From: a virus
Lineage: Duplodnaviria; Caudoviricetes
Virus record (IMG/VR): IMGVR_UViG_3300020471_000006
Coordinates: 96,001 to 160,000 of that record
Strand: one strand, 5' to 3'
Length of the DNA: 64,000 bases
Of the stretch, positions 27,646 to 45,862 are shown piece by piece. Made by a program: the position numbers and the translations under genes. Position 1 is the stretch's first letter, and each line of letters opens with the position of its first letter. Below the pieces are notes generated by a model. The model was not told the DNA's origin. It worked only from the letters and a program-made list of their open reading frames with translations, and made no database searches.

Positions 27646-28059
27646 ATGATTAACGATTTAACAGATCCTAATGCAAAACGATATGCATTAATTGAAGGTG
27701 GGAAGGTAGTCAATATTGTCAAAGCACCTGTTGACTGGCCTGCTCCTGCTGGTCAAACTAAAGTAGAGGTGGAACAACATGCCCTTGTCGATATTGGTGA
27801 TGAGCATGATGGTACTAGTTTCACAACTCAAAAATTAGTTAGAGTTCTAACTGATGAAGAAAAGTTTGAAAATCTAAGAGCAGAAAGAAATGCATTGTTG
27901 AACACAACTGATTGGACACAACAAGGTGATGTGCCAGATGCAATTAAAACTAAGTGGCAAACATATAGACAGGAATTGAGAGATCTTCCTGCCAATACTG
28001 ATATATCAACTACTACTACTGGACTTACTGACGTTGCATGGCCCACAAAGCCAACATAA
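27646..28059 (+). CDS. Tail fibre assembly chaperone
   Basis: LRAERNALLNTTDWTQ..DVP....KWQTYRQELRDLP...WPTKP signature, directly after the fibre gene. Confidence 0.85.
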   Translation: MINDLTDPNAKRYALIEGGKVVNIVKAPVDWPAPAGQTKVEVEQHALVDIGDEHDGTSFTTQKLVRVLTDEEKFENLRAERNALLNTTDWTQQGDVPDAIKTKWQTYRQELRDLPANTDISTTTTGLTDVAWPTKPT

Positions 28060-28062
28060 ATA
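28056..28062 (+). promoter_or_regulatory. Late promoter variant (ATAAATA)
   Basis: Overlaps the chaperone stop, 18 nt upstream of ATG 28081. Confidence 0.6.
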
Positions 28063-28080
28063 ATATTTTAATGATTTGTT

Positions 28081-28296
28081 ATGGAAGCAAGTAAAATAAG
28101 ATCTGAACTCACAAGACAATTAGGTGAGACAGAGACTAAAATCACCACACAGGAAAAGAGTCTTACTGAACTGAAAGAATATAGAATCAAAATTATTGGT
28201 GGGTTGGAAACACTAGATCTTCTGGAATCTCCTGATCCAGATGAACTTGCGGCTAATGGTGGAAAACTACCACCACCAGCAAAGAAGACTAAATAA
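28081..28296 (+). CDS. Hypothetical coiled-coil protein
   Basis: 71-aa ORF flanked by late-promoter motifs (second CTAAATA at 28289-28295). Confidence 0.75.
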   Translation: MEASKIRSELTRQLGETETKITTQEKSLTELKEYRIKIIGGLETLDLLESPDPDELAANGGKLPPPAKKTK

Positions 28297-28314
28297 AAGA
28301 AATTCTAGAGTCTA

Positions 28315-28650
28315 ATGGCAGCGATACCTGTAAATATAGTCGTTGACCGTCATGCTAACTATGACGTGACTTTCTTTATTACTAATAAAGATGGTACGCC
28401 ACTCAACATGACAGGATATACTGGTGAAGCAGCTTTTAAAACAAGCTACACTAGTTCTACTAGCGTGTCTGTACCTTTGGTATTTGTCAATCGAACTGCT
28501 GGTGAGATTGGCATATCTATGAATAGTACAGAAACAGGTGCTTTAGACCGTAGAAGATATGTTTATGATATTCTCTTGACTGCTCCAACAGGATACAAGA
28601 CAAGAGTTATTGAAGGATTAGTAGAAGTTAATCCTGGAGTATCATCCTGA
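28315..28650 (+). CDS. Virion structural protein (BppU-N-like beta-sandwich)
   Basis: PLNMTGYTGEA...GEIGISMNSTETGAL..RRYVYDILLT.P.G.KTRVIEGLVEVNPGVS pattern. Confidence 0.7.
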   Translation: MAAIPVNIVVDRHANYDVTFFITNKDGTPLNMTGYTGEAAFKTSYTSSTSVSVPLVFVNRTAGEIGISMNSTETGALDRRRYVYDILLTAPTGYKTRVIEGLVEVNPGVSS

Positions 28651-29369
28651 TGGCAGAGTATACCGTTAGAGTTGGATCTCAGCAACATAGTGTTGCTCTG
28701 AGAGAGAACCCTGCGTACAACTTGGATGTTAATTATCAAATTCCAACCAAGTCTACACAGTATACAAACCTAATACTTGATGATATATCTGGTGGATTTG
28801 ATGGTGTAGAAGATCAATTCAGTCTTTCTGTTAATGGATCTCCTTATACACCAATAGATGAACAACAATTGTTGATCTCTATTAATGATGTAGTTCTTAA
28901 ACCAAATACAGACTACATTGTTTCTAATGATCAGATTGTTTTTACTACTCCACCTACTGCTGGTCAAAAATTTTCTGGTGTTGCCTTAGTTACTACGGCA
29001 GATTTAACCAGAACTTTGAATTTTGTTATTGATGCTGGATCATTCCCAATGGCAATTGGACCAAAGGGTGATATGGCAATAGATGTTACTGGTACTATCG
29101 AGTCTTGGATTCTAGTAGCAGACATCGCAGGTAATATTGAAATAGATATATTGAAGTGTGCTTATGATGATTATCCTAACTTCACTTCGATAACAGGAAC
29201 AGAAACACCAAAATTAGGTATTCTAAATACCAGTACAGAAATAAAGGCGAAGGATGATAATCTTTCGACTTGGAACACCACAGTTAATGCTGGAGACATT
29301 TTTAGATTCAATGTAAACCATGTCCTGAACATAAGTAAGGCTAGTGTTGCATTGAGGATAAAATTATAA
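28650..29369 (+). CDS. Virion structural protein
   Basis: LDDISGGFDG...QLLISINDVVLKPNTDY.....IVFTTPP module also present in gp7; coupled by TGATG. Confidence 0.75.
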   Translation: MAEYTVRVGSQQHSVALRENPAYNLDVNYQIPTKSTQYTNLILDDISGGFDGVEDQFSLSVNGSPYTPIDEQQLLISINDVVLKPNTDYIVSNDQIVFTTPPTAGQKFSGVALVTTADLTRTLNFVIDAGSFPMAIGPKGDMAIDVTGTIESWILVADIAGNIEIDILKCAYDDYPNFTSITGTETPKLGILNTSTEIKAKDDNLSTWNTTVNAGDIFRFNVNHVLNISKASVALRIKL

Positions 29370-29389
29370 ATAATTGGTGGTTATAAATA
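29365..29389 (+). promoter_or_regulatory. Two consensus T4 late promoters
   Basis: TATAAATA at 29365-29372 and 29382-29389. Confidence 0.85.
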
Positions 29390-29426
29390 ATCATACATAG
29401 CAACGTAATTAGGACAGAGGAAAACA

Positions 29427-30815
29427 ATGGCACTCTTAGTCACCGACAACGGCGAAATTGATTCTCTAAGGAATCTGCTGAATTATTCACAGAATATCCC
29501 TAGGAACCTTATTCTTAAGTTGTTCACTACAGATACATATCCTGCTGAGAGTGATACTCCCTCTCAAACAAGATATTTCGAACCATATACCGATAACAAT
29601 ACTAACGGTTACGGTTCAGGACCTACTACAGGTTATCCTGGAATCATTAACAATAGAACTGATCAGGATTATGCACAGCAATATGGTATCTTACTGAACG
29701 GTAACCGTTGGGGAATCGAGACTGAACCAACTGCTGTTACAACAACTAATGGTGATGGTACATCTGGAACATACCTAGTTACGGTTGCTTCTAACACAGG
29801 TATTAAAAAGGGTGACTATGTTACTGGTGGATCTGTCGGCACTGGTGCATATGTTGTTGACATTGATGGTACTACACTTAACCTAAGTGTTAAGAACACT
29901 GGTAACTTCACTGCACAACCATTGAGTTTTGGTAGAGGTAGAACAACTGCTTCTTATCCTGAGCAAACATTCACCTTTGATGGTCCTGCTGGTAACGTAT
30001 ACGGTTATTTCCTCTCACGTGCTAACAACATGCCTACAACCATTCATGGTGTGGCTGATGCTGGTACTGCTGCTGCTGGAACACAGATTTCTAAGTCTGG
30101 TGTAAGGGGAACTATCGGTAACAACTATATTACTCTTGCTGCTGTTGCTGCAACTACTGCTTCTACTGGTACTGCTGGTGAGTTCGAAGTTGTTGTTACA
30201 TCTACAACTGGAATTGCTGTTAATCAGCGTGTTACAGGAACTAACGTTGCTCAGGGAGCACGTGTTACTGGAATCGTTGGTACTACAGTTTATCTAAGTA
30301 AGGCAAACGGTGGTGCTGTTAGTGGCGACTTGGTATTCCAAGCAAACGTTGCTGAGGATCTTGCTCTTGGAATGAGAGTTTCTCAGACAACTACACCTAA
30401 CGGTATCGATGCTGCTACAGTTATTACTGGTATCGACTACGAAACAGACGATGCAGATGGAACAGTAACTGTATTCCTCAATAACGTTCTTATTGAGAAC
30501 ATTCAGACTTCTAACGGTAATGACGTTGTTAAGTTTGACTTCAGTAAAGTAACTGCTACAGGTCATGGTCTAGAACCAGGCGACGCAGTTTATATCGATC
30601 AGGGAACAGGTAACACCACAACTACTGCTGGTACTTACATTGTATTTGAGACACCTGATGCAAACACCTTCACGACTACTAAAGCACTTGATGGTACAGG
30701 TTCTGTGACACTCTATGATGCGATATTCTTCGCTGAAAGGTTCACAAATGGTCCTTACGCTATTCAAAACGCTGGTGACCAGATCAAAGTAACTCTGAAC
30801 GTCAGCCTAGACTGA
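29427..30815 (+). CDS. Virion structural protein (probably highly expressed)
   Basis: Own double late promoter, SD GAGG and downstream terminator; Thr/Gly-rich; YPEQTFTF...VYGYF and AERFTNGPYAIQNAGDQIKVT motifs. Confidence 0.8.
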   Translation: MALLVTDNGEIDSLRNLLNYSQNIPRNLILKLFTTDTYPAESDTPSQTRYFEPYTDNNTNGYGSGPTTGYPGIINNRTDQDYAQQYGILLNGNRWGIETEPTAVTTTNGDGTSGTYLVTVASNTGIKKGDYVTGGSVGTGAYVVDIDGTTLNLSVKNTGNFTAQPLSFGRGRTTASYPEQTFTFDGPAGNVYGYFLSRANNMPTTIHGVADAGTAAAGTQISKSGVRGTIGNNYITLAAVAATTASTGTAGEFEVVVTSTTGIAVNQRVTGTNVAQGARVTGIVGTTVYLSKANGGAVSGDLVFQANVAEDLALGMRVSQTTTPNGIDAATVITGIDYETDDADGTVTVFLNNVLIENIQTSNGNDVVKFDFSKVTATGHGLEPGDAVYIDQGTGNTTTTAGTYIVFETPDANTFTTTKALDGTGSVTLYDAIFFAERFTNGPYAIQNAGDQIKVTLNVSLD

Positions 30816-30845
30816 TTAATTCAATTGATTTCATTATTATGTGTG

Positions 30846-30873
30846 AGGGGATTCAGTACTGGATCCCCTTTTT
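30846..30873 (+). terminator. Rho-independent terminator
   Basis: AGGGGATTCA-gtac-TGGATCCCCT stem (one G-U pair) followed by a T run. Confidence 0.8.
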
Positions 30874-30890
30874 ATTTTAGTGGAGGGTAA

Positions 30891-33800
30891 ATGGCAACGC
30901 ACATCTATACAACTGGTATAGACGGACCTTATGGGTCTAGTTTTGCGTTGCGTATTTTTAGTGGCGAGAGACATTCATATTCATGGAATCCTTCATGTGT
31001 TGAGGAGTTTATACAACTCGACTACGGTTTAAATTCATTAGCATTAACACCCACAACCATCATAGATGGTGGATCTATCAACGACGTAGAAGCTGTCGAA
31101 GTAGATGATTGGGGTAGAATAATTTACACAGATACTGTCCGACCTTACGGTTTTGTTAGACCGAAGACTGCTACAACGTGGACAGTTCTACATGCATGGG
31201 TTGGTACAGGTACTGTCTTTGAGATGGTCGGTAGTTACTATCGTCTGTCTGCTCCTTGGATCGTTCAAGGTACGGTACGAGTATCAGGTAGTGCGGTTAC
31301 ACACTGGGTTCCAGACCTCGAATTCGACGGGCTGTTTGGGATCCAGTCCCTCACAACGGAAGCTTTCTCTAAGAAAGAATCTGGTGAAGGTGAACTGTAC
31401 AAGCTTGGTGCTGGTGCAGTTACTAGAAGTATTTCAATTGAGTCCAAAGGACTATTCAGATTCAAGAGTAACGCAGGGGTTTCCTTTAGACCTAACTGGG
31501 TGGGATCAGGTACAGCCCAGATTTCTGGAGAAGTCTCAGGTATTAAGCGTACATTTGGATTTGAGGGTTCAGGTACTCTACCTAATATTAGTAGCGAAGA
31601 TAACAGAAGAACATACGCATATAATAATTCTGCTGTTGTTCCATTCGAATATGAGGACTACGGAACGATTCCGATACAGTCCTATCAAATCATTACTACA
31701 AACCAAGTACTGTCAGGTGTAAGTACTGGTTCTGTAGTACAAATTAATCCTACAATAACTGCAACTGTAGATCCTAGTGGATATCAGATTGCACCTCATT
31801 CGGGTACGTTTACAAACTCGATTGAACATGCTCCAGTGTCTGTTGGTAAGACAACCAACCTTGACTGGGGTCTTCTTAGTATCACTGGTACTCTATATCC
31901 ATACGGTCTCGGTCAAGTCAAGGGTACTGCTAAAGTTAACTTTGTACCTAATTGGATTGGTACTGGTGAAGTTAAAGTATTTGGTAAAGGTAGAGGAAGA
32001 ACCAAACCGAAATGGATTGGATTCGTCAGGAATCTTGTTACTGGTACTCTTGCAGAGAGAACTACTGTCACTGAGATTGGATCTGGTGTACTATTCAACT
32101 TCTCTAGAGCAGACGAGGCATTTACCTTTACCTATGAAGGTTCTGGTAATCTATACAAAATTGGTGGTGGTGAAGAAAGTGTCACTACAGACTACGTTGG
32201 TACTGGTACTCTCGCTCAACTTCAATCTAACGTTAAGGTCAACTTCGTACCTAACTGGAGAGGTTCTGGTGTTGTTGATGTCACAGGTGAAGTCTCCAAC
32301 GTTAAGAGATCATTTGGTGAGCAACCATTTGGTGTCATTCCAGTCTTCACTGGAGATGCATATGCTGAGAGAGTTACTTGGGATTACAACGATAGTTCTA
32401 TCTTACCATTTGGTTATGAAGACTTCGGTCCATTACCAGGAACTGCTACTGTCGAGGAGATCAATACAAATACGATCCTCTCAGGTACATCTACAGGATC
32501 TGTTGTAAGAATCAATGTTGGTGTTGTTGCGGTAGTAGATCCAGACTACACAATCTCACTTGTATCTAACTTCACACCAGGTGCAACCTTTGATTATGGT
32601 CTGGTTTCTGAAGGGTTCAATGGACCTATTGATTGGGGATATATTGCCCAGACAATCTGGAATTATCCTTTTGGTGGTTTCCAATATACCAGCAATACAC
32701 ATACATCACAAACCAAAGGATTTGTTGCAGAGAAGACATTCGATGCATCGATCAAGATTCGTTCTGCAACGTGGGTACGTATTAACCCACAGTGGGAAGG
32801 ATTTATTCCGATTGATGTTACTGGTGCTGCTACTTACAGTGTTACTAGACCATACACAGGTGAAGGTCGTGCATTCAGTATTGTATACGCTGAAGCTTCA
32901 CGTGTATTTGATTACGTTGGTGAAGGTCAGATCTACAAGATTGGTGGTGCAGTTGAATCTGTATCCTTCAACCCAGATGAGAAACAGGCTCTATTCCCAA
33001 TCAGGGGTGTTGCTGACGTTAGATTCGCACCTAACTGGAATGCCTTTGGTACTCTATGGGCATCTTATGGAACAGCAGAACCTGTACTTAGATCCTTTGC
33101 TTATGAAGGCACAGGTGTTCTACCTACTCTTGTTGGTACAGAGAATAGAAGAACTTACTCTTACAATGATTCTTCTGAGAATCTATATCAGTACAGAGAT
33201 TATGCAAGTCTACCTGGTGTCGGTACTATCACCGAGATCACACCAAGTCAGAGTATCTCTGGTACATCACCAACTTCTATTATCAGAATTGGTCTCAATG
33301 GTGTTGTTGCAAACATACCTCTTGGTCAGACATACGAGATCGATCCTTGGCTCACCACTGGAGCAACAACAGTCCACGACTGTGGATTTATCACCGATCC
33401 TGGTGCAACGGTAAGAGAGGATTATGGATTCACATCCACAATCAGTTCTATCAGAACAAAAGTTTCCGAATACCCATTTGGAAAACTTGTCAGTTTTGTT
33501 TCTCTATCAGCACCTTCACAGACCAAGATCTTCATATCGGATCCGATTCCTTGGGAACATGCGATCAAGATTCGTTCCGATGCAGCAGTTCGTGTACCAC
33601 CTCAGTGGGTTACCAACGATCCAACACTTTGGACTTGGAGTGGTGCAGCAGAATGTACAGTATCTGTTCCTCCAACAACACCACCATTATTCAAGTTTGC
33701 TGGTGGTTACACAGATCTCAAGTTCATCACAGCAGAAGAAGGTTCTGCTCATATGGAACTATCTGGTACTTGTCAAGAGGCAGTTGTATCAGACAACTAC

Positions 33801-36344
33801 AGATTCGTTACTATCGACGTTTCTGGAAACGCAGCAGAGAACTTCAGTCTCCACTTCCATGGATCTGGAAATCTATATTCTATTGGTCGCAGTGCAGAAG
33901 CGATTACAATCGACATACCTGCATTCCAAGCAGATCTTACATTTGGTGGATTCGGAAGTCAGAGATTTACTGTTGCAGAACAGTTTACTGTCGATATCGA
34001 TCTTTCTGGTACTGCAATCGAAAGACAGACAGACGATTGGGTTGGTCAATCTCATACAGAGATATTCAACGTTTCTGTTGTACCACTTATTACGAAGCAT
34101 TGGACTGGCGAAGGTCGGATCTTCAACTTCAGTGGTGCAGTCGAAGCGGTTACATTCAACCCACTCGAACTTGGAGCACTATTCGACTTTACAGGTCGTC
34201 TCGACGAGAGTCGTGCAATTGCTATTGCTGGTCTGGTTCACACAGAAGTACGTGGAACAGCAAGTCCTGCAAAACTTACATTCGCAGAGCAACTATTTGG
34301 TCGTACAGAAGTATACGGTCAAGCAGATCTTCTCAGGACACACGCTTACACAGGCGATGGTCAGGTCTTCTCTGTTGGTGGTGCAGCAGAATCTATTACT
34401 CTCAAACTTCCAGAGTTTACAGCAGACGCAGTTCTCAAGGGTGCTGTCAAACAGAGCTTCACCTTTGGTGGTATTATTGGATCTGGTGTCTTCACAGTCT
34501 TTGGAGAGATTGCAGATCCACTACTTACATTCGCAGAACAACCACTCGGAGACATCTACGTCAGTGGTATTGCAGATGTTGTCAACGTCGATATTCACTT
34601 TGGTGTTGGTGGACTGTTCTCTATTGGTGCAGCAGACGAAGCAATCACAGTCAAGATACCTGCATTCACAGCAGATATCCAGTTTGGTACAGAGTTTGCA
34701 GATATTCGTGCCACATACAGAGAGATTGGTCAAGCAGAAATTCTCTTCAGTGGAGAAGTTTCAGAACCAATCCTCACATTTGCAGAGCAACCAAGAATCG
34801 AAGTCGATATATTTGGTGCTTCTACATCTTCCAGATCCCACGTATGGGTTGGCGAAGGTCGTATATTTGCTATCAGTGGTGCAGCAGAGAGTGTCACATT
34901 TGTCTTGCCAGAATTCCAGGCAGACATGGTGTTCAAAGGGTTTGGTTCATTCAAACAAACCTTCAGCGAAAGATTCACAATCGAATCCAAACTGTCTGGT
35001 GCAGCAAGTATCAAGTACATTCCAAACTGGATTGGTTCTGGTACTGCAACAGTCGATGTTACATCTACATTCTCTCGTACCAAAATCTTTATTGGAGAAG
35101 GACGCATCTTCAATATCAGTGGTGCATCCGAAAGTGTTACCTTCAATCCAGAAGAGAGACAGTTACTATTCTCTATTGGTGGCACAAGGGCAACAGAAAA
35201 TGTTGTATGGAGTCCAGACGAAGTACCAGTATTCGTCGATATTACTGGAAAGGCATTCGAGAGATTCACACCAAACAATATTGGTTCTGGTACTATCTAC
35301 GTCGATGTCGATACATCCGAACGTATTACAAAGGACTTTGTTGGAGAAGGACGTATCTTCAACATCAGTGGTGCTTCAGAGAGTTTCACTGTCAACCCAG
35401 ACGAGACTACTGCACTATTCTCTATTGGTGGTGTTTCAAGTCAGGTTGTTGTCAGAAGAGAGATTGTATTTGGTACACTCTTTGCATTCTCTGGTGCTTC
35501 AGAAAGTGTTGGAGTCGCACCACTTGCAGACGGTCTCTTTACATTCAAGGGTCGTGCAGAGGAAGCAACAACATACGCAGAAGTTGGATTCGGAGATCTA
35601 TTCAACTTTGTTAGCAGTATTGAGCGTCGCACATTTGACTGGACTTCTCAAATCGATCTTGGTGTTTCTGGTATTGCAGACGAGAAACATACAGAAGCAT
35701 ACTCAGGATTTGGAAATCTATACAACTTCTCTGGTGCAGCAGAGACAATTACATTCTCTCCAGAACTTTATGGAGTTGTACATGTATTTGGTGTTGCCGA
35801 TACTCCAAGAACAAGAGTTACAGTTGGAACTGGATCATTCTTCACATGGAACAATGCATCCGAATCCAGAACAATTGCAGTCGAGAATGTTGCAATCTTC
35901 GACTTCTTGGGTGTTGCAAGACAGGCAGTTGTCAGAAACATTGTTACAGATGTCACTGTCGAGGTCAGAGGATCAGGTGCAGAATCCTTTACAAGGAAAG
36001 GATATGTTGGAGAAGGTTCCGCACAATTCTCTGGAGAATCTACTTCCAGTATCACAAGGATCGAAGAGGGTACAGGAAGAATCGATGTCTTCGAAGAGGA
36101 CAATATTCCTCTTATCGTCAAGACATTTACTGGTTCAGGTCGCATACCTTCTGTCTCAAATGCAGGAGTCCTCCGTACCTTCAGTTACGATGGACATTGC
36201 CCAATTGAGATTGATATTACAACCAAGGTTATTGCACCTTATCAGAGATTTGTATCTGAAGGTGGAGTTATTCTACATGTTGGTGATGCTGAGACAAGAC
36301 GCATACAAGTTGCACCACCAAGATCTTATGGATGGATCATATAA
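30891..36344 (+). CDS. Large repeat-rich virion structural protein (1817 aa)
   Basis: SD GGAGG; many W.G.G...V.G and GEGRIFNISGASES.TFNP / FAEQP repeats; late gene context. Confidence 0.85.
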   Translation: MATHIYTTGIDGPYGSSFALRIFSGERHSYSWNPSCVEEFIQLDYGLNSLALTPTTIIDGGSINDVEAVEVDDWGRIIYTDTVRPYGFVRPKTATTWTVLHAWVGTGTVFEMVGSYYRLSAPWIVQGTVRVSGSAVTHWVPDLEFDGLFGIQSLTTEAFSKKESGEGELYKLGAGAVTRSISIESKGLFRFKSNAGVSFRPNWVGSGTAQISGEVSGIKRTFGFEGSGTLPNISSEDNRRTYAYNNSAVVPFEYEDYGTIPIQSYQIITTNQVLSGVSTGSVVQINPTITATVDPSGYQIAPHSGTFTNSIEHAPVSVGKTTNLDWGLLSITGTLYPYGLGQVKGTAKVNFVPNWIGTGEVKVFGKGRGRTKPKWIGFVRNLVTGTLAERTTVTEIGSGVLFNFSRADEAFTFTYEGSGNLYKIGGGEESVTTDYVGTGTLAQLQSNVKVNFVPNWRGSGVVDVTGEVSNVKRSFGEQPFGVIPVFTGDAYAERVTWDYNDSSILPFGYEDFGPLPGTATVEEINTNTILSGTSTGSVVRINVGVVAVVDPDYTISLVSNFTPGATFDYGLVSEGFNGPIDWGYIAQTIWNYPFGGFQYTSNTHTSQTKGFVAEKTFDASIKIRSATWVRINPQWEGFIPIDVTGAATYSVTRPYTGEGRAFSIVYAEASRVFDYVGEGQIYKIGGAVESVSFNPDEKQALFPIRGVADVRFAPNWNAFGTLWASYGTAEPVLRSFAYEGTGVLPTLVGTENRRTYSYNDSSENLYQYRDYASLPGVGTITEITPSQSISGTSPTSIIRIGLNGVVANIPLGQTYEIDPWLTTGATTVHDCGFITDPGATVREDYGFTSTISSIRTKVSEYPFGKLVSFVSLSAPSQTKIFISDPIPWEHAIKIRSDAAVRVPPQWVTNDPTLWTWSGAAECTVSVPPTTPPLFKFAGGYTDLKFITAEEGSAHMELSGTCQEAVVSDNYRFVTIDVSGNAAENFSLHFHGSGNLYSIGRSAEAITIDIPAFQADLTFGGFGSQRFTVAEQFTVDIDLSGTAIERQTDDWVGQSHTEIFNVSVVPLITKHWTGEGRIFNFSGAVEAVTFNPLELGALFDFTGRLDESRAIAIAGLVHTEVRGTASPAKLTFAEQLFGRTEVYGQADLLRTHAYTGDGQVFSVGGAAESITLKLPEFTADAVLKGAVKQSFTFGGIIGSGVFTVFGEIADPLLTFAEQPLGDIYVSGIADVVNVDIHFGVGGLFSIGAADEAITVKIPAFTADIQFGTEFADIRATYREIGQAEILFSGEVSEPILTFAEQPRIEVDIFGASTSSRSHVWVGEGRIFAISGAAESVTFVLPEFQADMVFKGFGSFKQTFSERFTIESKLSGAASIKYIPNWIGSGTATVDVTSTFSRTKIFIGEGRIFNISGASESVTFNPEERQLLFSIGGTRATENVVWSPDEVPVFVDITGKAFERFTPNNIGSGTIYVDVDTSERITKDFVGEGRIFNISGASESFTVNPDETTALFSIGGVSSQVVVRREIVFGTLFAFSGASESVGVAPLADGLFTFKGRAEEATTYAEVGFGDLFNFVSSIERRTFDWTSQIDLGVSGIADEKHTEAYSGFGNLYNFSGAAETITFSPELYGVVHVFGVADTPRTRVTVGTGSFFTWNNASESRTIAVENVAIFDFLGVARQAVVRNIVTDVTVEVRGSGAESFTRKGYVGEGSAQFSGESTSSITRIEEGTGRIDVFEEDNIPLIVKTFTGSGRIPSVSNAGVLRTFSYDGHCPIEIDITTKVIAPYQRFVSEGGVILHVGDAETRRIQVAPPRSYGWII
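33415..35611 (+). other. Region with all three + strand reading frames open (stop-triplet desert)
   Basis: Main frame plus ORFs 33347-35614 (+2) and 33424-36360 (+1) overlap; no TAA/TAG/TGA between 33415 and 35611. Confidence 0.9.
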
Positions 36345-36345
36345 G

Positions 36346-36363
36346 ATAAATATAACATAAATA
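36346..36363 (+). promoter_or_regulatory. Two late promoter variants (ATAAATA x2)
   Basis: ATAAATA at 36346-36352 and 36357-36363, upstream of ATG 36387. Confidence 0.65.
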
Positions 36364-36386
36364 TACTTGGTATCGAATAATCACTG

Positions 36387-36848
36387 ATGACAACTCAGGT
36401 TCAATTCCGAAGAGGTACTACAGCTGAGCATGCTCTCTTCACTGGGGCGCAGGGTGAACTGACGATTGATACTGACAAGAACATGGCCGTCATTCATGAC
36501 GGAACCACTACTGGTGGATTTGACGTTTTTAGGGCTAGATGGGAATATATCAATTCAAATCAAACTCTTGGAACAAGCCTTCGTTATTTGGTGGACTCTT
36601 CAAATGGTCCAATATCGTTAACCCTTCCGCTTTACAATAATCAATTAGTTCCCAAATCTGGGGATGTAATAGAGTTTATTGACGTAAAGTTTAGTTGGGA
36701 TATAAATAATGTTACTCTGACGGACCCTATCGGACGACAATTCCAGAATACATTTGGAGTTATATCATCACCTCTGGTGTTTGATGTCAAAGGAGCAAGT
36801 GTCCAACTTATTTGGGAAGGAGTTTACTGGAGGGTAATAGTCCAATGA
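36387..36848 (+). CDS. Virion/tail protein with Mtd-N-like N-terminus and gp9/10-like beta domain
   Basis: QVQFRRGTTAEH..FTGAQGELTIDTDK...IHDG.T.GG, then YLVDSSNGPISLTLP...GDVIEFID. Confidence 0.75.
   Translation: MTTQVQFRRGTTAEHALFTGAQGELTIDTDKNMAVIHDGTTTGGFDVFRARWEYINSNQTLGTSLRYLVDSSNGPISLTLPLYNNQLVPKSGDVIEFIDVKFSWDINNVTLTDPIGRQFQNTFGVISSPLVFDVKGASVQLIWEGVYWRVIVQ
36701..36708 (+). promoter_or_regulatory. Gene-internal consensus late promoter
   Basis: TATAAATA inside 36387-36848, about 140 nt upstream of the next gene. Confidence 0.5.
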
Positions 36849-37252
36849 CGATGTACATCAGCGATAGTTTTAGAGGCGGTGGCACTAGCTCAGGCGGTGG
36901 CGGCGGTACAGGCTTTGCTAGTAACAACTACGATCTTGGTAACGATTTTACTATCCACGCCTTAAGCAGAGATGCAGATGGCATGCTCAACTATACCAAA
37001 ATAAGAAGTATTGATGATGATGTAGTAACTTTCCATCGTAAAGATGGAACTCCATACCTAGATATTGCAACTGGTATGACTGATTATGTAGAAGAGACTA
37101 CAGAAGAAAAGTCATATACTAATCATCCACAAGATGAATATCAGCAGTATAGATTTGATAGTAGAAAAGTAACCTACTTTATAGATGATGACGGATATTT
37201 CAATGTTCGTTTTAATGAATCTTACGATTATACAACCGAGGGACCTAAGTAA
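36845..37252 (+). CDS. Hypothetical virion-region protein with Gly linker
   Basis: ATGA overlap gives start 36845 (MTMYISDSFRGGGTSSGGGGG...) rather than 36812. Confidence 0.75.
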   Translation: MTMYISDSFRGGGTSSGGGGGTGFASNNYDLGNDFTIHALSRDADGMLNYTKIRSIDDDVVTFHRKDGTPYLDIATGMTDYVEETTEEKSYTNHPQDEYQQYRFDSRKVTYFIDDDGYFNVRFNESYDYTTEGPK

Positions 37253-37263
37253 AGGAAAAACAA

Positions 37264-40200
37264 ATGGCAGATTTTAGACTTGGCAGACTAAAATTTAACT
37301 GGAGAGGTGACTGGGCGGCTGGAACCGCTTATGTCATTGATGACATTGTTAAATTTGGTGCTAACACTTACGTAGCTATCGCTAACCACACATCGGTTTC
37401 GAGTGCTGCACAATGGTATGCAACTGATGCAGGTAGTTGGCAACTTCATACAGAGGGTATCTACAATACAGGTGATTGGGCTGCAGCTACTTTCTATAAG
37501 TTAAACGATATCGCAAAATACGGTAACGTACTTTATAGAACTACTACACCACACTTATCTACTAGTACTTTTGACAGTGCTAAGTTTGCTGCCTACTTAG
37601 ACGGTCTTAAGTTCGAAGATACTTGGGATTCAGCAACTGAATATCAAAAAGGTGATATCGTAACATATGGTGGTTATTCATATGTTGCTTTAACAACTAG
37701 TATTGCTATTCAACCAAATAACGGTATTGGTAACCAGTGGGATATCCTAACAACTGGTTTCAAAGTTGTTGGTAACTGGGATTCTACTACAACATACAAA
37801 CCAGGCGACGTTGTACTCTTAGGTGGTAACTCATACGTTTCTAAGACAACAAACATTAATAAGTCTCCTGATACAAACACTTCTGATTGGGACTTCGTTG
37901 TTGGTGGATTTACATGGAAGGGAACTTGGGATGTAGGTACTGTCTACTATCCAGGTGATGCTGTTAACAGAAATAGTAACTCCTATATTTGTGTAGCTCA
38001 GTCAACAGGTAATGCACCTGAAACAGATACTCTTGGTACATATTGGAATTCACTTGCTGAAGGAGCGTCTGCCAACGTTCTAACAACATCTGGTGATATT
38101 CTTTATCAAGCTGGAGCTGGTCCTGCTAGATTAGCAATTGGAACTGAGAATAAAGTTCTTACTGTTGATGCTTCTGGTTATCCATCATGGAAAGAGAGTC
38201 ACGTTACACACAAAGTTTACTACGTTACTCCAGAAGGTAAAGATACCAATCCAGGTAACAGTATTACAACAGCATGGAGAACAGTTCGTCACGCTGTAGA
38301 TAATGTAACTGGTCCTGCAACAATTTACGTTAAAGCAGGTACATATAACGAAATCCTTCCAATGAGGGTTCCTGAAGGTGTAGGTATCGTTGGTGATAAC
38401 CTAAGAACCTCAAGGATTCAAGCAAGAGCTGGTGAACCTTCAAGTGTTGTTAAACTTTCACTTGCACAAGTACCTGATGCTCAGTATAGAGTTCTTGGTT
38501 CTACTATCACATCTGGTGATGGAGCAAAGACTGGTGAAGTTATTGATGTTAGAGGAGGAGGTGGAGAGATCTATGTCCAAACTGATGGATTTGAAAATAA
38601 CAAAACTGCTGACGCATACAACCTATTAACATCTAACACACAGTTCCTTGTTAAGGAAACTCTTGCACAAGCTGCTAACGGTGGTGTTGCTATTACTAGC
38701 CCTCCAGGAGGAGATGCTTCTGTATTCGAAAGTAAACTTGCTGGTTTGGTTCAGGATATCACTGCTAACTTAGGTTATGGTGGTAACGACCGTGTTTATG
38801 ACACAGTTGATGATTGGATTACTACTAACTATTGGAATGGTAACGAAGCAGAAGTTGTTTCTATCTTAGCATACTTGATTCCTCTTGCAAAAGATGTTAT
38901 CAATAACACAACAATTACTGTTATTGGTACTCATGGATTAGGTCAGGTTAAGAACGATACTATTACAGACATTAGTACTGTAAGTGGAAACGCAACTTGT
39001 GTTGTTCAGGATGCTGCTATTACAACATTAGTTGGAGTTGCAACAACTGGATTGGGTTCAGGACTTGGAAGTGTTACTAGAGATGCTAACCAAAACCTCT
39101 GGACAGTTTCAGACACATATGAAGCAGGTGCTACAGATATCGGTATTACTAGTGTAACACCTATCAACAACGAAAACTTAACTATGTGGATGCTAGGAAG
39201 CACCACTATGCTTAAGGACATGGTTATGGACGGAATGGTTGGATTCGTTCCTTCAAATTCTGATCCTAAAGATCTTAACACTGCTACAATCCAAGGTGTT
39301 TATGTACGTCTAGATCCTAACTCACCAATTAAGAGATCACCTTATGTCTCTAACTGTTCTTGCTTCGGTGCAACAGGTATTGGTGCTGTTATTGACGGTG
39401 ATGTTCACGCTAAGTGGGATAATACTGCAAACTTTACACCAACTGATGCTACATACAATCCTTCTACTGGAGATTTAGATCTTGAACTTGGTGCTGGTCA
39501 TGGATTGACTTCTGGATCAAGTATTACATTAGCACAAGCATCTATTACATTTACTTGTACTAAGAACGGTAATGCATCTAACCATGCATATCCTCGTGTT
39601 ACTGACCCTGCGTTTGGTAAGGAACTTGTAATTACAAGTCATAGTGATACAAACATTGTAGTTAATGTTGGTGTTGCTGCTCCTGCTGATCAGTATGGAC
39701 ATACATTTGTAAGTGCTGCTACTAACGCTGTTGTATTTGATAACAGATCAAACAAAACAATGGTGTTTGACTCTTGGACACAAATCCACGAAGATGGTGG
39801 AGTTGGTTTCTGGTGTACAAACAAGGCTGGTGCTGAGATTGTATCTTGCTTTACTTACTACTGTCACATCTCATACTCTTCTACTAGAGGTGGAAGAATC
39901 AGATCTCTTGCTGGTAACTCATCATGGGGAACATACGGTATTGTATCTTCTGGATTCGATACTAATGAAACAACTCTTGATGGTACTATCGATGGTCTAT
40001 CTCTTGAATATGATGAAGCAACAATCGTTGCTGGAGCACAGGATTCAATTTGGTTGAATGAAGAAAGAGTTGTTGGATTAACATCTGGTGCTGTTGGAGA
40101 AATTATCTCTGTACAGGCTGGTGTATCTAAGATACTCTTCAGACCATTTAAAGGAAACTTTGTACAAGGTGAAACTATAGATGGTCAAACTTCTGGAGTA

Positions 40201-41358
40201 CAAGGTTCTCTACTTAGCAACGCTGACTACTTGGGTGGACAAAACGGATTCGTTCTTGCCTTAACTGGTAGAACATCTGCTCCTGTTCCAGGTGGTTCAG
40301 TTGAATTTGTTACTGGTGCTGGTGGTGCTGGAGAAGAACCATTCACATTTGTTATCGCTAACTCATCATACACTGCTCCTACTGGAAGAGGTAACTTAAC
40401 TGTTACTAGAGGACTGCTAGGTAGTTCTGCTGCTATACATCAAGGTTTGGAATTAATTACCAGATACCAGTATGGTGGTGCTAGTAACTTGAGTTCTGCT
40501 GTTAACAATACAACAGAAACTACAATTTATGTTAACTCCATTTCAGGATTCTCAATTGGAGCATACTGTATTGTAGACGATGAAATGATGGCAATTACTT
40601 CATTCCCAACAGCAACATCTCTTGAAGTTACTCGTGGACAAGAAGGTACAAATGCTGCTACTCACACATCAGGTACTTCAGTACGTGCTATCGAAATTAA
40701 GTCTGTTGATCAAACAGATACTTTAAGAGATCTCACTGCTGCCAGTACTGTTATTCGCATTACTGATGCTTCTGGATTCAACAATAATGATTACATAAAA
40801 ATCAATAGTGAATTCATGCAGATTACAAATGCACAAACAGATACAACTGGTACTGCATTAGTTGTTCTTGCTGCTGAGAAACCCACAAGAACATTTGACG
40901 GACAAAACTACAAGATCAGATATGGTTATAGTCAAGTTCGTCTAACTGGTCATGACTTCCTAGACTTAGGTACAGGAAACAAACTTCAAACTAACTGGCC
41001 TGGAGATCCATTAGTGGATCCAGCACCAGGTAATGAAGTTACTGAGGACTTCCCAGGACGTGTATTCTTTGTATCAACAGACCAAGATGGTAACTTCACT
41101 GTTGGACGTTACTTCAAGGTCAACCAGGCAACTGGTTCAACTACATTGAACGCATCATCCTTTGACCTATCTGGTCTATCATCCTTGAGATTGGGTTCTA
41201 TTGGTGCTCAGTTGGGTGAAAGTATCACAGAATTCTCTTCTGATGTTACACTTTCTGCTAACTCAAACCAAAAAGTTCCTACACAACGTGCTGTTAAGAC
41301 ATACATTGACGACAACCGCACAACTAAAGGATACGTCTTCTGGGCAGGGTCAGTTTGA
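37264..41358 (+). CDS. Tail fibre/spike-like protein with carbohydrate-binding-type repeats and a probable beta-helix region
   Basis: MADFRLGRLKFNWRGDW...Y..DDIV.(F/Y)GG..Y repeats; YYVTPEGKDTNPG....AWRT and IYVKAGTYNE.LP..VP....IVGDNLR pattern seen at pectin-lyase-fold starts. Confidence 0.8.
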   Translation: MADFRLGRLKFNWRGDWAAGTAYVIDDIVKFGANTYVAIANHTSVSSAAQWYATDAGSWQLHTEGIYNTGDWAAATFYKLNDIAKYGNVLYRTTTPHLSTSTFDSAKFAAYLDGLKFEDTWDSATEYQKGDIVTYGGYSYVALTTSIAIQPNNGIGNQWDILTTGFKVVGNWDSTTTYKPGDVVLLGGNSYVSKTTNINKSPDTNTSDWDFVVGGFTWKGTWDVGTVYYPGDAVNRNSNSYICVAQSTGNAPETDTLGTYWNSLAEGASANVLTTSGDILYQAGAGPARLAIGTENKVLTVDASGYPSWKESHVTHKVYYVTPEGKDTNPGNSITTAWRTVRHAVDNVTGPATIYVKAGTYNEILPMRVPEGVGIVGDNLRTSRIQARAGEPSSVVKLSLAQVPDAQYRVLGSTITSGDGAKTGEVIDVRGGGGEIYVQTDGFENNKTADAYNLLTSNTQFLVKETLAQAANGGVAITSPPGGDASVFESKLAGLVQDITANLGYGGNDRVYDTVDDWITTNYWNGNEAEVVSILAYLIPLAKDVINNTTITVIGTHGLGQVKNDTITDISTVSGNATCVVQDAAITTLVGVATTGLGSGLGSVTRDANQNLWTVSDTYEAGATDIGITSVTPINNENLTMWMLGSTTMLKDMVMDGMVGFVPSNSDPKDLNTATIQGVYVRLDPNSPIKRSPYVSNCSCFGATGIGAVIDGDVHAKWDNTANFTPTDATYNPSTGDLDLELGAGHGLTSGSSITLAQASITFTCTKNGNASNHAYPRVTDPAFGKELVITSHSDTNIVVNVGVAAPADQYGHTFVSAATNAVVFDNRSNKTMVFDSWTQIHEDGGVGFWCTNKAGAEIVSCFTYYCHISYSSTRGGRIRSLAGNSSWGTYGIVSSGFDTNETTLDGTIDGLSLEYDEATIVAGAQDSIWLNEERVVGLTSGAVGEIISVQAGVSKILFRPFKGNFVQGETIDGQTSGVQGSLLSNADYLGGQNGFVLALTGRTSAPVPGGSVEFVTGAGGAGEEPFTFVIANSSYTAPTGRGNLTVTRGLLGSSAAIHQGLELITRYQYGGASNLSSAVNNTTETTIYVNSISGFSIGAYCIVDDEMMAITSFPTATSLEVTRGQEGTNAATHTSGTSVRAIEIKSVDQTDTLRDLTAASTVIRITDASGFNNNDYIKINSEFMQITNAQTDTTGTALVVLAAEKPTRTFDGQNYKIRYGYSQVRLTGHDFLDLGTGNKLQTNWPGDPLVDPAPGNEVTEDFPGRVFFVSTDQDGNFTVGRYFKVNQATGSTTLNASSFDLSGLSSLRLGSIGAQLGESITEFSSDVTLSANSNQKVPTQRAVKTYIDDNRTTKGYVFWAGSV

Positions 41359-41368
41359 TCCCCCACTT

Positions 41369-41376
41369 TATAAATA
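41369..41376 (+). promoter_or_regulatory. Consensus T4 late promoter
   Basis: TATAAATA 38 nt upstream of ATG 41415. Confidence 0.85.
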
Positions 41377-41414
41377 TCAAATAAACCACTATCGTCTACA
41401 CGGAGAATAGGTAA

Positions 41415-41738
41415 ATGGCATCTGGAATATTGGGGACTCAACAATCCCTAGCCGCAAATACATTAACAACAGTATATACAGTACCTGCGAGTACAGTAGC
41501 ATACTGTAACTTCAACATTGTCAACACTAATGCAACCCCAGTTGATGTAAGAGTAGCTATTGCAGCTGCTGATACACCATCTGCTGCTGAGTATGTTGAG
41601 TACAATGCTGAGATCGGAGGATACGGAGTTCTAGAAAGAACTGGATTCGCTATGCAAACAGGTAAGAAACTTGTTGCCTTCTCAGACACAACTGGCGTGA
41701 GTATCTCTGCCTATGGTGTTGAAGAATCAACTTCCTAA
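41415..41738 (+). CDS. Small virion structural protein
   Basis: TVYTVPA...NIVN...VRVAI...YVEYN...LERTG...SISAYGVEE; SD GGAG; late promoter. Confidence 0.8.
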   Translation: MASGILGTQQSLAANTLTTVYTVPASTVAYCNFNIVNTNATPVDVRVAIAAADTPSAAEYVEYNAEIGGYGVLERTGFAMQTGKKLVAFSDTTGVSISAYGVEESTS

Positions 41739-41741
41739 TTA

Positions 41742-41748
41742 ATAAATA
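41742..41748 (+). promoter_or_regulatory. Late promoter variant (ATAAATA)
   Basis: Intergenic, 24 nt upstream of ATG 41773. Confidence 0.65.
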
Positions 41749-41772
41749 GATTTACAAGGAGATTTTAGAACA

Positions 41773-42096
41773 ATGGGACGCAACCTCACACCTGCATCTG
41801 ACACAAGAGAAACCGTAGCAGTTACTTCAGCACATTCTATATTGGCTGGACAAATTTTGCTACTTGATACTACTAGTGCTGCATTCACAGTAACTTTACC
41901 TGCTAATGGTAAATTAGGAGACAGAATCAATTTAATTGATGCTGCTGGTAACTGTGATGTTAACAAAGTAACAGTATCCAGAAATGGACACAAGATCGCT
42001 AACTTGGCTGAAGATCTTGATTTCGATTTGAAGAACGCTTCACTTGAGCTCATTTATACAGGTTCAGCCTACGGATGGTCAATTCTATCCAACTAA
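41773..42096 (+). CDS. Small virion protein (gp9/10-like beta domain)
   Basis: LLDTTSAAFTVTLPA...GDRINLIDAAG....KVTVSRNGHKI....EDL...LIYTGSAYGW. Confidence 0.75.
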   Translation: MGRNLTPASDTRETVAVTSAHSILAGQILLLDTTSAAFTVTLPANGKLGDRINLIDAAGNCDVNKVTVSRNGHKIANLAEDLDFDLKNASLELIYTGSAYGWSILSN

Positions 42097-42114
42097 TTCA
42101 ACTAAGGTAGTAAA

Positions 42115-43041: not shown

Positions 43042-43051
43042 GGAAAGGCAA

Positions 43052-43990: not shown

Positions 43991-43993
43991 ATA
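43987..43993 (+). promoter_or_regulatory. Late promoter variant (CTAAATA)
   Basis: Overlaps the stop of 43052-43990, 20 nt upstream of ATG 44014. Confidence 0.5.
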
Positions 43994-44013
43994 AGAGGAC
44001 AGAGGCACTATAG

Positions 44014-44919: not shown

Positions 44920-44923
44920 ATAA

Positions 44924-44931
44924 TATAAATA
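44924..44931 (+). promoter_or_regulatory. Consensus T4 late promoter
   Basis: TATAAATA 24 nt upstream of ATG 44956. Confidence 0.85.
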
Positions 44932-44955
44932 GGAAAGTATAGGTAATCAAAGGTT

Positions 44956-45810: not shown

Positions 45811-45829
45811 AAAGTTCGAGATGGATCGG

Positions 45830-45857: not shown

Positions 45858-45862
45858 ATGCG

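What the first reader, a model, noticed from the sequence alone, without database searches (positions are those of the whole stretch)
33415..35611. 2.2-kb stop-codon desert: all three + strand frames of a virion gene are kept open
Seen in sequence: no TAA, TAG or TGA occurs on the + strand from 33415 to 35611, so the 1817-aa main ORF coexists with 755-aa (+2) and 978-aa (+1) ORFs. Neighbouring genes carry several such triplets per 60 nt (five in 9301-9360), so over 100 would be expected. Other T-purine triplets (TGG, TGC, TGT, TAC, TAT) stay common, and minus-strand stops (TTA/CTA/TCA) are not depleted. The signal is therefore specific to stop codons and to the mRNA strand, unlike restriction-site avoidance. 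It is achieved synonymously: Gly-Glu/Asp is spelled GGC-GAA/GGC-GAT (34107, 34353, 34851) or GGA-GAA, whereas the 5' part of the same gene uses GGT-GAA (31383). Inference: selection keeps alternative frames translatable. Options are programmed frameshifting giving trans-frame isoforms, true overprinted proteins (+2 is Arg/Cys/Trp-rich, +1 is Ser/Leu/Gln-rich), or a frameshift-tolerant cassette in which paired compensating indels swap segments into other frames to diversify a virion surface protein without truncation. I do not recognise this as a described system.
Basis: partly seen in the sequence, partly recalled or inferred. Interest (0 to 1): 0.93.

Follow-up and report, generated by a model that had tools for sequence, protein, structure and literature searches.

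The report
Stop-free fibre gene, all frames open
The rear half of a fast-evolving cyanophage tail-module gene has been purged, by ongoing natural selection, of every stop triplet in all three forward reading frames although the two extra frames encode no conserved protein, a kind of constraint on a coding sequence that I could not find described anywhere.

Summary
No TAA, TAG or TGA occurs on the + strand between 33412 and 35612. Only three follow, all +2 within 27 nt, before a further 570 nt without any. Shuffling synonymous codons gives 75 ± 5 off-frame stops (minimum 59) against 0 observed. Neighbouring genes match expectation, and nothing else in the 202-kb genome or in 1.4 Mb of related loci resembles this.

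Selection is still acting. Fourteen relatives carry 547 variable sites in the desert and one new stop, where 25-40 per sequence are expected. A third-position T never precedes AA, AG or GA codons (0/164), but precedes other codons 47-79% of the time.

The trait spans the gene family. All 12 lineages at <60% identity keep the +1 frame open. Eight also keep +2 open, and the lineages in the most AT-rich genomes have lost +2.

The alternative frames show no amino-acid constraint and no conserved start. I found no slippery sites, no frameshifted alleles in nature and no reverse transcriptase. Classic overlapping genes and indel-swapping cassettes are therefore not supported.

The few stops that occur are clustered, so uninterrupted reading length is what is selected. 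My best guess, held weakly, is proofing against frameshift errors, so that off-frame ribosomes do not release truncated fibre chains. The mechanism remains open. The scan had noted this same stretch from another window.

The parts
30891..36344 (+). Host gene: 1817-aa virion or tail-module protein (P0001) of family phrog_11522, function unknown. It has conserved N- and C-termini, a hypervariable middle and internal repeats.
   Evidence: ORF; translation; PHROG hit E 4e-276; no Pfam or PDB hit; family alignment A1; hypervariable relative to neighbours.
30845..30887 (+). Strong intrinsic terminator (30845-30870, 11-bp stem plus T run), followed by a GGAGGG Shine-Dalgarno sequence (30882-30887) just before the ATG. 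No TATAAATA late promoter lies in between.
   Evidence: The nearest late promoters are at 29365 and 29382, upstream of the preceding gene.
30891..33414 (+). N-terminal part: about 80 conserved residues plus three paralogous modules of about 260 aa. The +2 frame carries the expected number of stops (70 vs 73). The +1 frame is threefold depleted (7 vs 22), and its stops sit in tight clusters at homologous module-boundary positions (aa 277-293, 539-549, 841).
33415..35611 (+). Main stop desert: 2197 nt with no TAA, TAG or TGA in any forward frame. It covers main-frame aa 842-1573, a tandem array of motif repeats of about 82 aa (243-249 nt).
35612..35638 (+). Island of three +2-frame stops (TAG 35612, TGA 35621, TGA 35636) inside the conserved motif NFVSSIERRTFD. 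It closes the +2 frame only.
   Evidence: Clustering of +2 stops is significant in five other lineages.
35639..36205 (+). Second block that is open in all frames (567 nt).
33415..36360 (+). +1 frame open for 982 codons from stop to stop, ending 16 nt past the main stop. Its product would be rich in Leu, Ser, Gln and Val, shows no constraint and has no homologue.
33179..35614 (+). +2 frame open for 812 codons from stop to stop. Its product would be rich in Arg, Ser, Cys, Tyr and Trp, shows no constraint and has no homologue.
36387..41358 (+). Conserved downstream context: a 153-aa protein with an Mtd_N domain, a 135-aa protein, and a 1364-aa tail fibre with CBM_5_12. Off-frame stop counts are normal here.

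Best explanation
The C-terminal repeat array of this fibre-like virion gene is under selection for uninterrupted translatability of both alternative sense frames. It is, in effect, a frameshift-proofed coding sequence.

Shown:
- Stop triplets, and only those, are purged by context-dependent synonymous codon choice.
- The purge is maintained today by purifying selection.
- It is conserved across lineages whose synonymous sites are saturated.
- The peptides the alternative frames would encode are unconstrained.
- The rare stops that do exist are clustered, so the selected property is reading length rather than absence of a motif.
- The constraint fades in the most AT-biased genomes, which suggests many small per-site effects.

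Inferred:
- The agent that reads these triplets is the ribosome with its release factors.
- The ribosomes concerned are main-frame ribosomes that slipped by error. At published error rates of about 1e-5 to 1e-4 per codon, roughly 1-10% of chains would slip somewhere in about 1000 codons.
- The benefit is that such ribosomes do not release tidy truncated chains. A truncated chain of a modular, probably trimeric fibre with a conserved N-terminal docking end could still assemble and spoil the virion. A chain dragging a long nonsense tail would be excluded or degraded.
For: - Specific to stops and to the sense strand.
- Far beyond chance, with clean controls.
- Ongoing selection. There are 547 variable sites and 25-40 new stops expected per sequence, yet 0 are seen (1 in L011). 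Two-fold C/T sites before AA/AG/GA codons are 0/18 polymorphic and all C, against 31/95 polymorphic in safe contexts and 12/30 in the 5' half. Changes that would make a stop on the consensus background occur only together with a neighbouring change.
- Family-wide. All 12 lineages at <60% identity show +1 depletion and eight show strong +2 depletion.
- No protein-level constraint in the alternative frames.
- Clustered residual stops: P = 0.0002 to 0.015 in five lineages.
- Loss of the +2 desert tracks low GC3 and low flank GC, as expected if weak per-site selection is balanced against AT mutation pressure.
- The sharp 5' boundary lies at a conserved module boundary, the (E)DYGF motif.
- Both termini are conserved while the middle is hypervariable, which fits a protein docked at both ends.
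Against: - No direct evidence shows that off-frame ribosomes exist here or that truncated chains are harmful.
- Other very long structural genes of the same genome (6618, 2701, 2374 and 1364 codons) show no depletion. The special cost for this gene is therefore assumed, not shown.
- The fold and oligomeric state are unknown. AlphaFold2 failed with pLDDT 26.
- A nonsense-tailed chain still carries the N-terminal part, so why it should be harmless is speculative.
- The N-terminal modules tolerate +2 stops, which needs the extra assumption that fragments shorter than about 840 aa cannot assemble.
- Homopolymer runs are already scarce, so slippage should be rare.
Confidence: 0.33

Rival explanations
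1. Deliberate multi-frame decoding. Ribosomes are shifted, stochastically or at an unrecognised signal, into the +1 and +2 frames within the array. This would yield trans-frame isoforms or a heterogeneous population of fibre chains whose exact sequence does not matter.
For: Both alternative frames are open over the same region, with a sharp and conserved 5' boundary. Selection is on reading length. The +1 frame runs to just past the main stop in most lineages. The gene is the hypervariable, probably host-interacting member of a conserved module.
Against: The desert has no slippery heptamer, fewer homopolymers than elsewhere and no Rfam frameshift element. No block of suppressed synonymous variation marks a signal. 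The alternative-frame sequences are unconstrained and look like nonsense. The trait is lost or partial in four of 12 lineages with the same architecture, for example L020 at 46% identity and collinear, which is unexpected for an essential isoform.
Confidence: 0.15
2. Evolvability. Open frames let a frameshift mutation survive until a compensating indel arises. Segments would thus swap into another frame, diversifying a host-range protein, as proposed for the off-frame-stop-poor PE_PGRS genes.
For: The gene evolves far faster than its neighbours: 27-41% identity against 55-88%. Within-clade nonsynonymous diversity is high. Clustered stops fit a model in which local openness matters. The concept has been published for PE_PGRS genes (PMC13328622).
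Against: No trace of such events was found. There are no non-3n indels among 14 relatives. Apparent paired gaps in lenient blastn alignments vanish under stricter gap costs, and the few left are short and poorly matched. No cross-frame similarity exists between or within lineages. No protein among 5.8 billion matches either alternative frame, while 286 or more clusters match the main frame. Contigs of four runs show no indels in the desert. Mutation-prone runs are depleted, not enriched. Second-order selection would have to hold about 160 sites against mutation.
Confidence: 0.12
3. One or two real overlapping genes, for example the 978-codon +1 ORF, whose products are so weakly constrained or so fast-evolving that standard tests miss them, or whose translation acts only in cis.
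For: A +1 ORF of about 650-1260 codons is kept in most lineages, with a conserved 5' limit and an end just past the main stop. An SD-like AAGAGAGGA precedes the ATG at 33424.
Against: The ATG is not conserved. Start-like codons are so frequent in the +1 frame (about 13% of codons) that one near any stop is expected. Synonymous rates are not reduced and the alternative-frame NN/NS ratio equals the control. Deep codon identity is near expectation. The products have no homologues and no Pfam hit. Two simultaneous kilobase-long overprinted genes would be unprecedented.
Confidence: 0.05
4. Avoidance of the three triplets as RNA or DNA motifs, unrelated to reading frames, for instance as targets of a nuclease or a binding protein.
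For: The triplets are absent in every phase, including phases that would need a frameshift to be read.
Against: The set TAA/TAG/TGA, with TGG, TAC and TAT kept or even enriched, matches only release-factor specificity. The residual stops are clustered and frame-specific, and the +1 and +2 frames behave differently along the gene and across lineages. A motif with an independent cost per copy would not behave this way. The effect is confined to one gene.
Confidence: 0.04
5. A by-product of amino-acid composition, codon bias or repeat ancestry, or an assembly artefact.
For: The region is an array of diverged repeats with somewhat shifted codon usage.
Against: Permutations that keep the protein and its codon counts never give fewer than 59 stops. 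The paralogous N-terminal modules with the same motifs carry normal +2 stop numbers. The feature is present in cultured isolates S-CAM1 and S-CAM3, in 70 IMG/VR loci and in runs from 14 studies.
Confidence: 0.01

Closest known systems
Overlapping (overprinted) genes and trans-frame ORFs of viruses, e.g. phiX174 nested genes, influenza PA-X X-ORF, potyvirus PIPO
   Same: An alternative sense frame is kept free of stops over a defined, conserved stretch inside a longer gene.
   Different: Known cases involve one frame, tens to a few hundred codons, and measurable suppression of synonymous change plus constraint on the second protein. Here two frames are open over 730-1260 codons with no such constraint and no conserved start or shift site.
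'Frameshift tolerance' of PE_PGRS genes of Mycobacterium tuberculosis, which are poor in off-frame stops (PMC13328622)
   Same: Scarcity of out-of-frame stops in a variable, repetitive surface-protein gene is interpreted as letting translation continue after a frameshift.
   Different: The paper describes mutation-prone CGGC motifs and real frameshifted alleles in strains. PE_PGRS genes lie in a very GC-rich genome (my own knowledge), where open off-frames come largely from composition. Here the genome is 38% GC, the purge is achieved purely by context-dependent synonymous choice (z about -14), slippery runs are depleted and no frameshifted allele was found.
Ambush hypothesis (Seligmann and Pollock 2004, as cited in PMC13328622 and PMC8410138)
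   Same: It concerns selection on off-frame stop codons as a response to ribosomal frameshift errors.
   Different: It predicts the opposite sign: an enrichment of hidden stops to abort frameshifted translation early. The other genes of this genome are neutral (observed/expected 0.94 and 1.06). This gene is the extreme opposite.
Programmed -1 frameshifting in phage tail assembly chaperones (lambda G/GT type)
   Same: A tail-module gene in which a second frame must stay open downstream of a shift.
   Different: That system has a defined slippery heptamer, a single frame, and a short, conserved and functional trans-frame domain (my own knowledge). None of these is found here.
Immunoglobulin D segments that are readable in all three frames
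   Same: A coding segment kept open in all three frames because its reading phase is not fixed.
   Different: D segments are tens of bases long and owe their variable phase to imprecise V(D)J joining (my own knowledge; the only related paper turned up by search was PMC2118795). No joining or rearrangement is detectable here.

Membership tests
phrog_11522 (cyanomyovirus large virion or tail-module protein, function unknown) | Significant full-length profile match | tested here: met
   E 4.4e-276, 920 bits; the best stretch matches aa 892-1817 to profile positions 1205-2130. Collinear homologues exist in S-CAM1, S-CAM3 and 70 IMG/VR loci in conserved synteny.
Overlapping (dual- or triple-coding) gene | Long alternative-frame ORF conserved among relatives | tested here: met
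   The +1 frame is open for 650-1260 codons in most lineages and the +2 frame in blocks of 250-810 codons.
Overlapping (dual- or triple-coding) gene | Suppressed synonymous variation of the main frame across the overlap | tested here: not met
   Third-position diversity is 0.139 in the desert against 0.160 in the 5' half, which matches the roughly 15% of changes forbidden by stop avoidance alone. Four-fold-site divergence is similar in both halves.
Overlapping (dual- or triple-coding) gene | Purifying selection on the alternative-frame protein | tested here: not met
   NN/NS is 0.82 (+1) and 1.34 (+2) in the desert, against 0.71 and 1.83 in the control region. Deep synonymous codon identity is near expectation. 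The products have no homologues.
Overlapping (dual- or triple-coding) gene | Conserved start codon or entry signal | tested here: not met
   The ATG at 33424 is ACG in 4 of 14 close relatives, and no common start exists in distant lineages.
Programmed ribosomal frameshift cassette | Slippery site (X_XXY_YYZ or a known +1 site) at the head of the trans-frame ORF | tested here: not met
   The only in-frame heptamer in the gene is at 31028, far upstream. Runs of four or more identical bases occur at 2.7/kb in the desert against 7.4/kb window-wide.
Programmed ribosomal frameshift cassette | Conserved stimulatory RNA structure | tested here: inconclusive
   There is no Rfam match and no window of suppressed synonymous diversity. 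No dedicated covariation search was run.
Frameshift-tolerant hypervariable gene (PE_PGRS-like, or contingency locus) | Depletion of off-frame stops | tested here: met
   0 observed against 75 expected.
Frameshift-tolerant hypervariable gene (PE_PGRS-like, or contingency locus) | Natural alleles that differ by frameshifts or compensated frameshifts | tested here: not met
   all found none.
Frameshift-tolerant hypervariable gene (PE_PGRS-like, or contingency locus) | Mutation-prone tracts (homopolymers, short tandem repeats, structure-forming motifs) | tested here: not met
   Homopolymers and TTT/AAA junction runs are depleted. The repeats are 243-249 nt long, diverged and in phase.
Diversity-generating retroelement target | Reverse transcriptase in the genome (a template repeat is also required) | tested here: not met
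   No RVT_1 match in the complete 202.5-kb genome. The downstream neighbour merely carries an Mtd_N domain. I did not look for a template repeat.

The most novel reading that the evidence does not exclude
The fibre gene's C-terminal array is meant to be decoded in more than one frame. Ribosomes wander between the three open frames, so each infected cell makes a cloud of fibre chains with different stretches of sequence. This would be phenotypic diversification of a host-contact protein without mutation. Alternatively, defined trans-frame isoforms are made from an unrecognised kind of shift signal.
Probability: 0.15. Interest if true: 0.95.

Novelty: categorically new. Interest (0 to 1): 0.86.

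Why it matters
This would be a new type of selective constraint on coding DNA. Kilobases of sequence are shaped only so that the wrong reading frames never hit a stop, which is the opposite of the 'hidden stop' (ambush) idea.

It gives a clean natural system for an old question: how often ribosomes lose frame in vivo, and what that costs. The cultured phages S-CAM1 and S-CAM3 on Synechococcus WH7803 carry the trait and could be used for experiments.

It concerns the fastest-evolving gene of a conserved cyanophage tail module, so it may bear on how marine phages manage host recognition.

It also matters practically. Gene finders and overlapping-gene detectors will call spurious 750-1260-codon ORFs here, and codon-optimisation or recoding rules would destroy the feature.

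Tried and rejected
- Composition or codon-bias artefact: rejected by synonymous permutations and by controls on neighbouring genes and the whole genome.
- Overlapping protein genes: rejected by four independent tests and by the non-conserved start.
- Frame-swapped homologues or paralogues: none by blastp or tblastn across frames.
- Natural frameshifted alleles: none in 5.8 billion proteins, with a positive control of 286 or more main-frame clusters.
- Compensated indels. A lenient blastn run gave about 1800 HSPs with gaps not divisible by three. With stricter gap costs almost all disappeared, and the few left are 7-12 nt long with 5-8 matches, so they are alignment artefacts.
- Indels in public runs: none in the desert. 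All runs were contigs, so rare variants are not excluded.
- DGR: no reverse transcriptase.
- Slippery sites and Rfam elements: none.
- Suppressor tRNA: the only tRNA is Thr(TGT).
- Trans-acting factor among adjacent genes: synteny is identical in lineages with and without the +2 desert.
- Structure: the AlphaFold2 model of the last 428 aa was unusable at pLDDT 26.5, so no fold search was run. The ESM Atlas feature search returned only unnamed viral clusters. Profile search against PDB found nothing.
- Host assignment of the low-GC lineages failed because no isolate matched.
- Literature: five searches found no description of the phenomenon.
Full report
**What is there**

The window is bases 96001-160000 of a complete 202,519-bp virus genome of 38.3% GC. 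Gene content and relatives identify it as a T4-like cyanomyovirus.

The finding lies in the gene 30891..36344 (+). It encodes 1817 aa and belongs to family phrog_11522, of unknown function. It has no Pfam domain and no relative of solved structure.

The gene sits in a strictly syntenic tail module:
- a 239-aa virion protein;
- a 462-aa protein;
- this gene;
- a 153-aa protein with an Mtd_N domain;
- a 135-aa protein;
- a 1364-aa tail fibre with CBM_5_12.

It follows a strong terminator (30845-30870) and has its own GGAGGG ribosome-binding site. The nearest TATAAATA late promoters lie upstream of the preceding gene.

The protein has a conserved N-terminus, three paralogous modules of about 260 aa, a C-terminal array of repeats of about 82 aa that share the motif GxGxhF..SGAxE, and an invariant C-terminal tail ...R.YGWII.

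Between phages whose neighbouring genes are 55-88% identical, this protein is only 27-41% identical. It is therefore the hypervariable member of the module.

**The observation**

No TAA, TAG or TGA occurs on the + strand between the triplets at 33412 and 35612, a gap of 2200 nt. Three +2 stops within 27 nt follow, and then another 570 nt without any.

The mean gap in the genome is 16 nt. The longest gap outside this gene is 161 nt.

Permuting synonymous codons within the desert gives 74.6 ± 5.3 off-frame stops, never fewer than 59. Codon usage taken from the gene's own 5' half gives 97. The same test gives observed ≈ expected for the neighbouring genes and for all 126 ORFs of at least 120 codons in the genome. 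There this gene is the only outlier, at z = -6.8 and -9.8.

In 1.43 Mb of related phage loci, both strands, every stop-free stretch of 330 nt or more lies in this gene family.

**Specificity**

I tested all 64 triplets in both off-frames against the permutations.
- The six frame-by-stop combinations are the signal unique to the desert.
- The other depleted triplets (TTT and AAA across codon junctions, CGG, CCC) are equally depleted in the 5' half.
- The enriched ones (+2 TGG, CGA, CAA) are the direct substitutes for the missing stops.

A third-position T precedes AA, AG or GA codons 0 times in 164. It precedes AC, AT, GG, GC and GT codons 47-79% of the time. In the 5' half the corresponding figure for AA, AG and GA is 40-46%. 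Codons ending in TA are followed only by T or C.

Minus-strand stops are not depleted. Only release factors have this triplet specificity, so I take translation termination to be what is avoided.

**Selection is ongoing**

Fourteen relatives from IMG/VR, at 83-99% amino-acid identity, have the desert at the same coordinates.
- They differ at 547 sites inside the desert.
- About 15% of random substitutions would create an off-frame stop, so 25-40 new stops are expected per diverged sequence.
- None is present, except one in L011 at the 5' edge.

Two-fold C/T sites give the cleanest contrast.

| Context | Sites | Polymorphic |
|---|---|---|
| Desert, before AA/AG/GA codons | 18 | 0 (always C) |
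| Desert, safe contexts | 95 | 31 |
| 5' half, before AA/AG/GA codons | 30 | 12 |

Substitutions that would create a stop on the consensus background occur only together with a change in the neighbouring codon.

**Conservation across the family**

S-CAM1 and S-CAM3 are cultured Synechococcus phages of two other genera. Their proteins are 24-30% identical to this one, and both have C-terminal deserts of 1.2-1.7 kb.

I collected 71 complete genes, which fall into 12 lineages at <60% identity.
- All 12 have the +1 frame nearly closed to stops over the last 1000 codons: 0-9 observed against 13-30 expected.
- Eight also have a strong +2 depletion: 3-27 observed against about 70 expected.
- Two are partial and two show none.

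Mapped on one alignment, a core block open in all frames (window aa ~875-1275) is shared by almost all lineages. The +1 stops of the N-terminal part sit at homologous module-boundary positions.

Loss of the +2 desert goes with low GC3 (≤0.25) and low flank GC. L020 is collinear with the window protein at 46% identity, yet has normal +2 stop density over its last 400 codons. The desert is therefore not a requirement of the protein itself.

**What it is not**

Overlapping protein genes:
- Third-position diversity is reduced only by the amount that stop avoidance explains.
- An OLGenie-type NN/NS ratio matches the control region.
- Synonymous codon identity between deep lineages is near expectation.
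- The +1 ATG at 33424 is not conserved.
- The translations look like nonsense and have no homologue.

Frame-swapping evolution:
- There are no indels among close relatives.
- No cross-frame similarity was found.
- No protein in 5.8 billion carries an alternative-frame stretch, while the main frame finds 286 or more clusters.
- Contigs of four public runs show no indels in the desert.
- Paired gaps seen with lenient blastn settings are alignment artefacts.

Classical programmed frameshifting: no slippery heptamer, few homopolymers, no Rfam element and no block of conserved synonymous sites.

DGR: the genome has no reverse transcriptase.

**What the pattern says about the mechanism**

The residual +2 stops are significantly clustered: three within 9 codons here, and six to eight within about 50 codons in other lineages (P = 0.0002-0.015 in five lineages). 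The +1 stops of the N-terminal part are likewise packed into tight clusters.

Extra stops next to an existing stop are evidently free. The selected quantity is therefore uninterrupted reading length in the alternative frames, not absence of a motif.

A +2 island upstream of the gene's end does not relax the 800 codons before it. 'Reaching the 3' end' (coupling to the next gene, protection of the mRNA) is therefore an unlikely benefit, and the effect is local.

The graded loss in AT-biased genomes suggests many small per-site effects balanced against mutation pressure, rather than an all-or-none function.

**Best explanation (inference, confidence about one third)**

The array is proofed against frameshift errors. 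Over about 1000 codons a few per cent of ribosomes may slip. With the normal stop density they would release tidy truncated chains. Such chains of a modular, probably oligomeric fibre with a conserved N-terminal docking part could still assemble and spoil virions. Without stops the chains acquire a long nonsense tail and are excluded or degraded.

This explains three things:
- the local, length-based selection;
- the boundary at a module junction;
- the dispensability of the trait in some lineages.

It does not explain why other giant structural genes of the same genome lack the feature.

The rivals are deliberate multi-frame decoding, evolvability, weakly constrained overlapping ORFs and motif avoidance. 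They are weighed in their own sections.

**Comparison with what is known**

- The ambush hypothesis predicts the opposite sign.
- PE_PGRS 'frameshift tolerance' (PMC13328622) is the nearest published idea. It comes with mutation-prone motifs and real frameshift alleles, and in a very GC-rich genome (my own knowledge) open off-frames are largely compositional.
- Viral overprinted ORFs and trans-frame ORFs are far shorter, involve a single frame and are constrained.

Five literature searches found no description of a kilobase-scale, selection-maintained purge of stops from all frames without a second protein.

The scan's own notes hold two first-reader notes on this same stretch and none on other DNA.

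**Verdict**

The feature is real, statistically overwhelming, actively selected and conserved across the family. It is unexplained by any known system, and its mechanism is open.

Noticed in passing
window 30891-36344: In-frame start-type codons are very scarce. There are 3 internal ATG, 3 GTG and 3 TTG in 1817 codons (0.50%), the lowest of all real genes of at least 300 codons in the genome; other genes run at 1.2-6.5%. Family members have 0-8 internal Met in about 2000 aa. This may reflect selection against internal initiation, or simply a Met-poor fibre protein.
   Followed up: partly
window 31720-31770, 32506-32540, 33412: The +1-frame stops of the N-terminal part are packed into small clusters at the same position in each paralogous module of about 260 aa, and at homologous positions in distant lineages. 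All arise from avoidable GTA or ATA codons followed by a purine.
   Followed up: partly
window 30845-30887 and 29365-29389: The gene starts 20 nt after a strong intrinsic terminator and has no late promoter of its own. Two TATAAATA boxes lie upstream of the preceding gene. The gene is therefore probably expressed by terminator read-through, at a lower level than the 462-aa gene before it.
   Followed up: no
window 36387-36848: The conserved 153-aa downstream protein carries an Mtd_N domain (PF18454, E 6e-15), the N-terminal domain of the Bordetella phage DGR target, in a genome without any reverse transcriptase.
   Followed up: partly
window 28000-46000 compared with L042, L054, L067, L081, L082, L086, L089: Synteny of the whole tail module is conserved and the neighbours are 55-88% identical, while this gene is 27-41% identical. 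It is the hypervariable gene of the module, with only its two termini conserved.
   Followed up: yes
window 30891-35611: T before TT codons, and TTT/AAA runs across codon junctions generally, are strongly avoided in both halves of the gene (NNT before TT.. in 3% and 9% of cases). This is a separate, slippage-averse codon-context bias.
   Followed up: partly
genome C1:9657-10019 (outside the window): A 120-codon ORF has no +2-frame stop where 6.2 are expected (z -3.2). It is the only other, much weaker outlier in the genome-wide test.
   Followed up: no
genome C1:54071-73927 (outside the window): A 6618-codon ORF, plus further ORFs of 2701 and 2374 codons inside the window (window 14893-22998 and 5923-13047), all have normal off-frame stop numbers.
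   Followed up: partly
window 30971-30974: One metatranscriptome contig of a relative (run X15, depth 4) shows a +G insertion and a 1-nt deletion 3 nt apart, near the gene's 5' end. It is a one-codon compensated shift, an alignment equivalent of substitutions, or an error.
   Followed up: no
genome C1:52551-52943 (outside the window): ARAGORN finds a single tRNA, Thr(TGT), matching the Thr codon ACA that the desert prefers (44 of 65). It also reports an overlapping permuted 'tmRNA' that is probably spurious.
   Followed up: no
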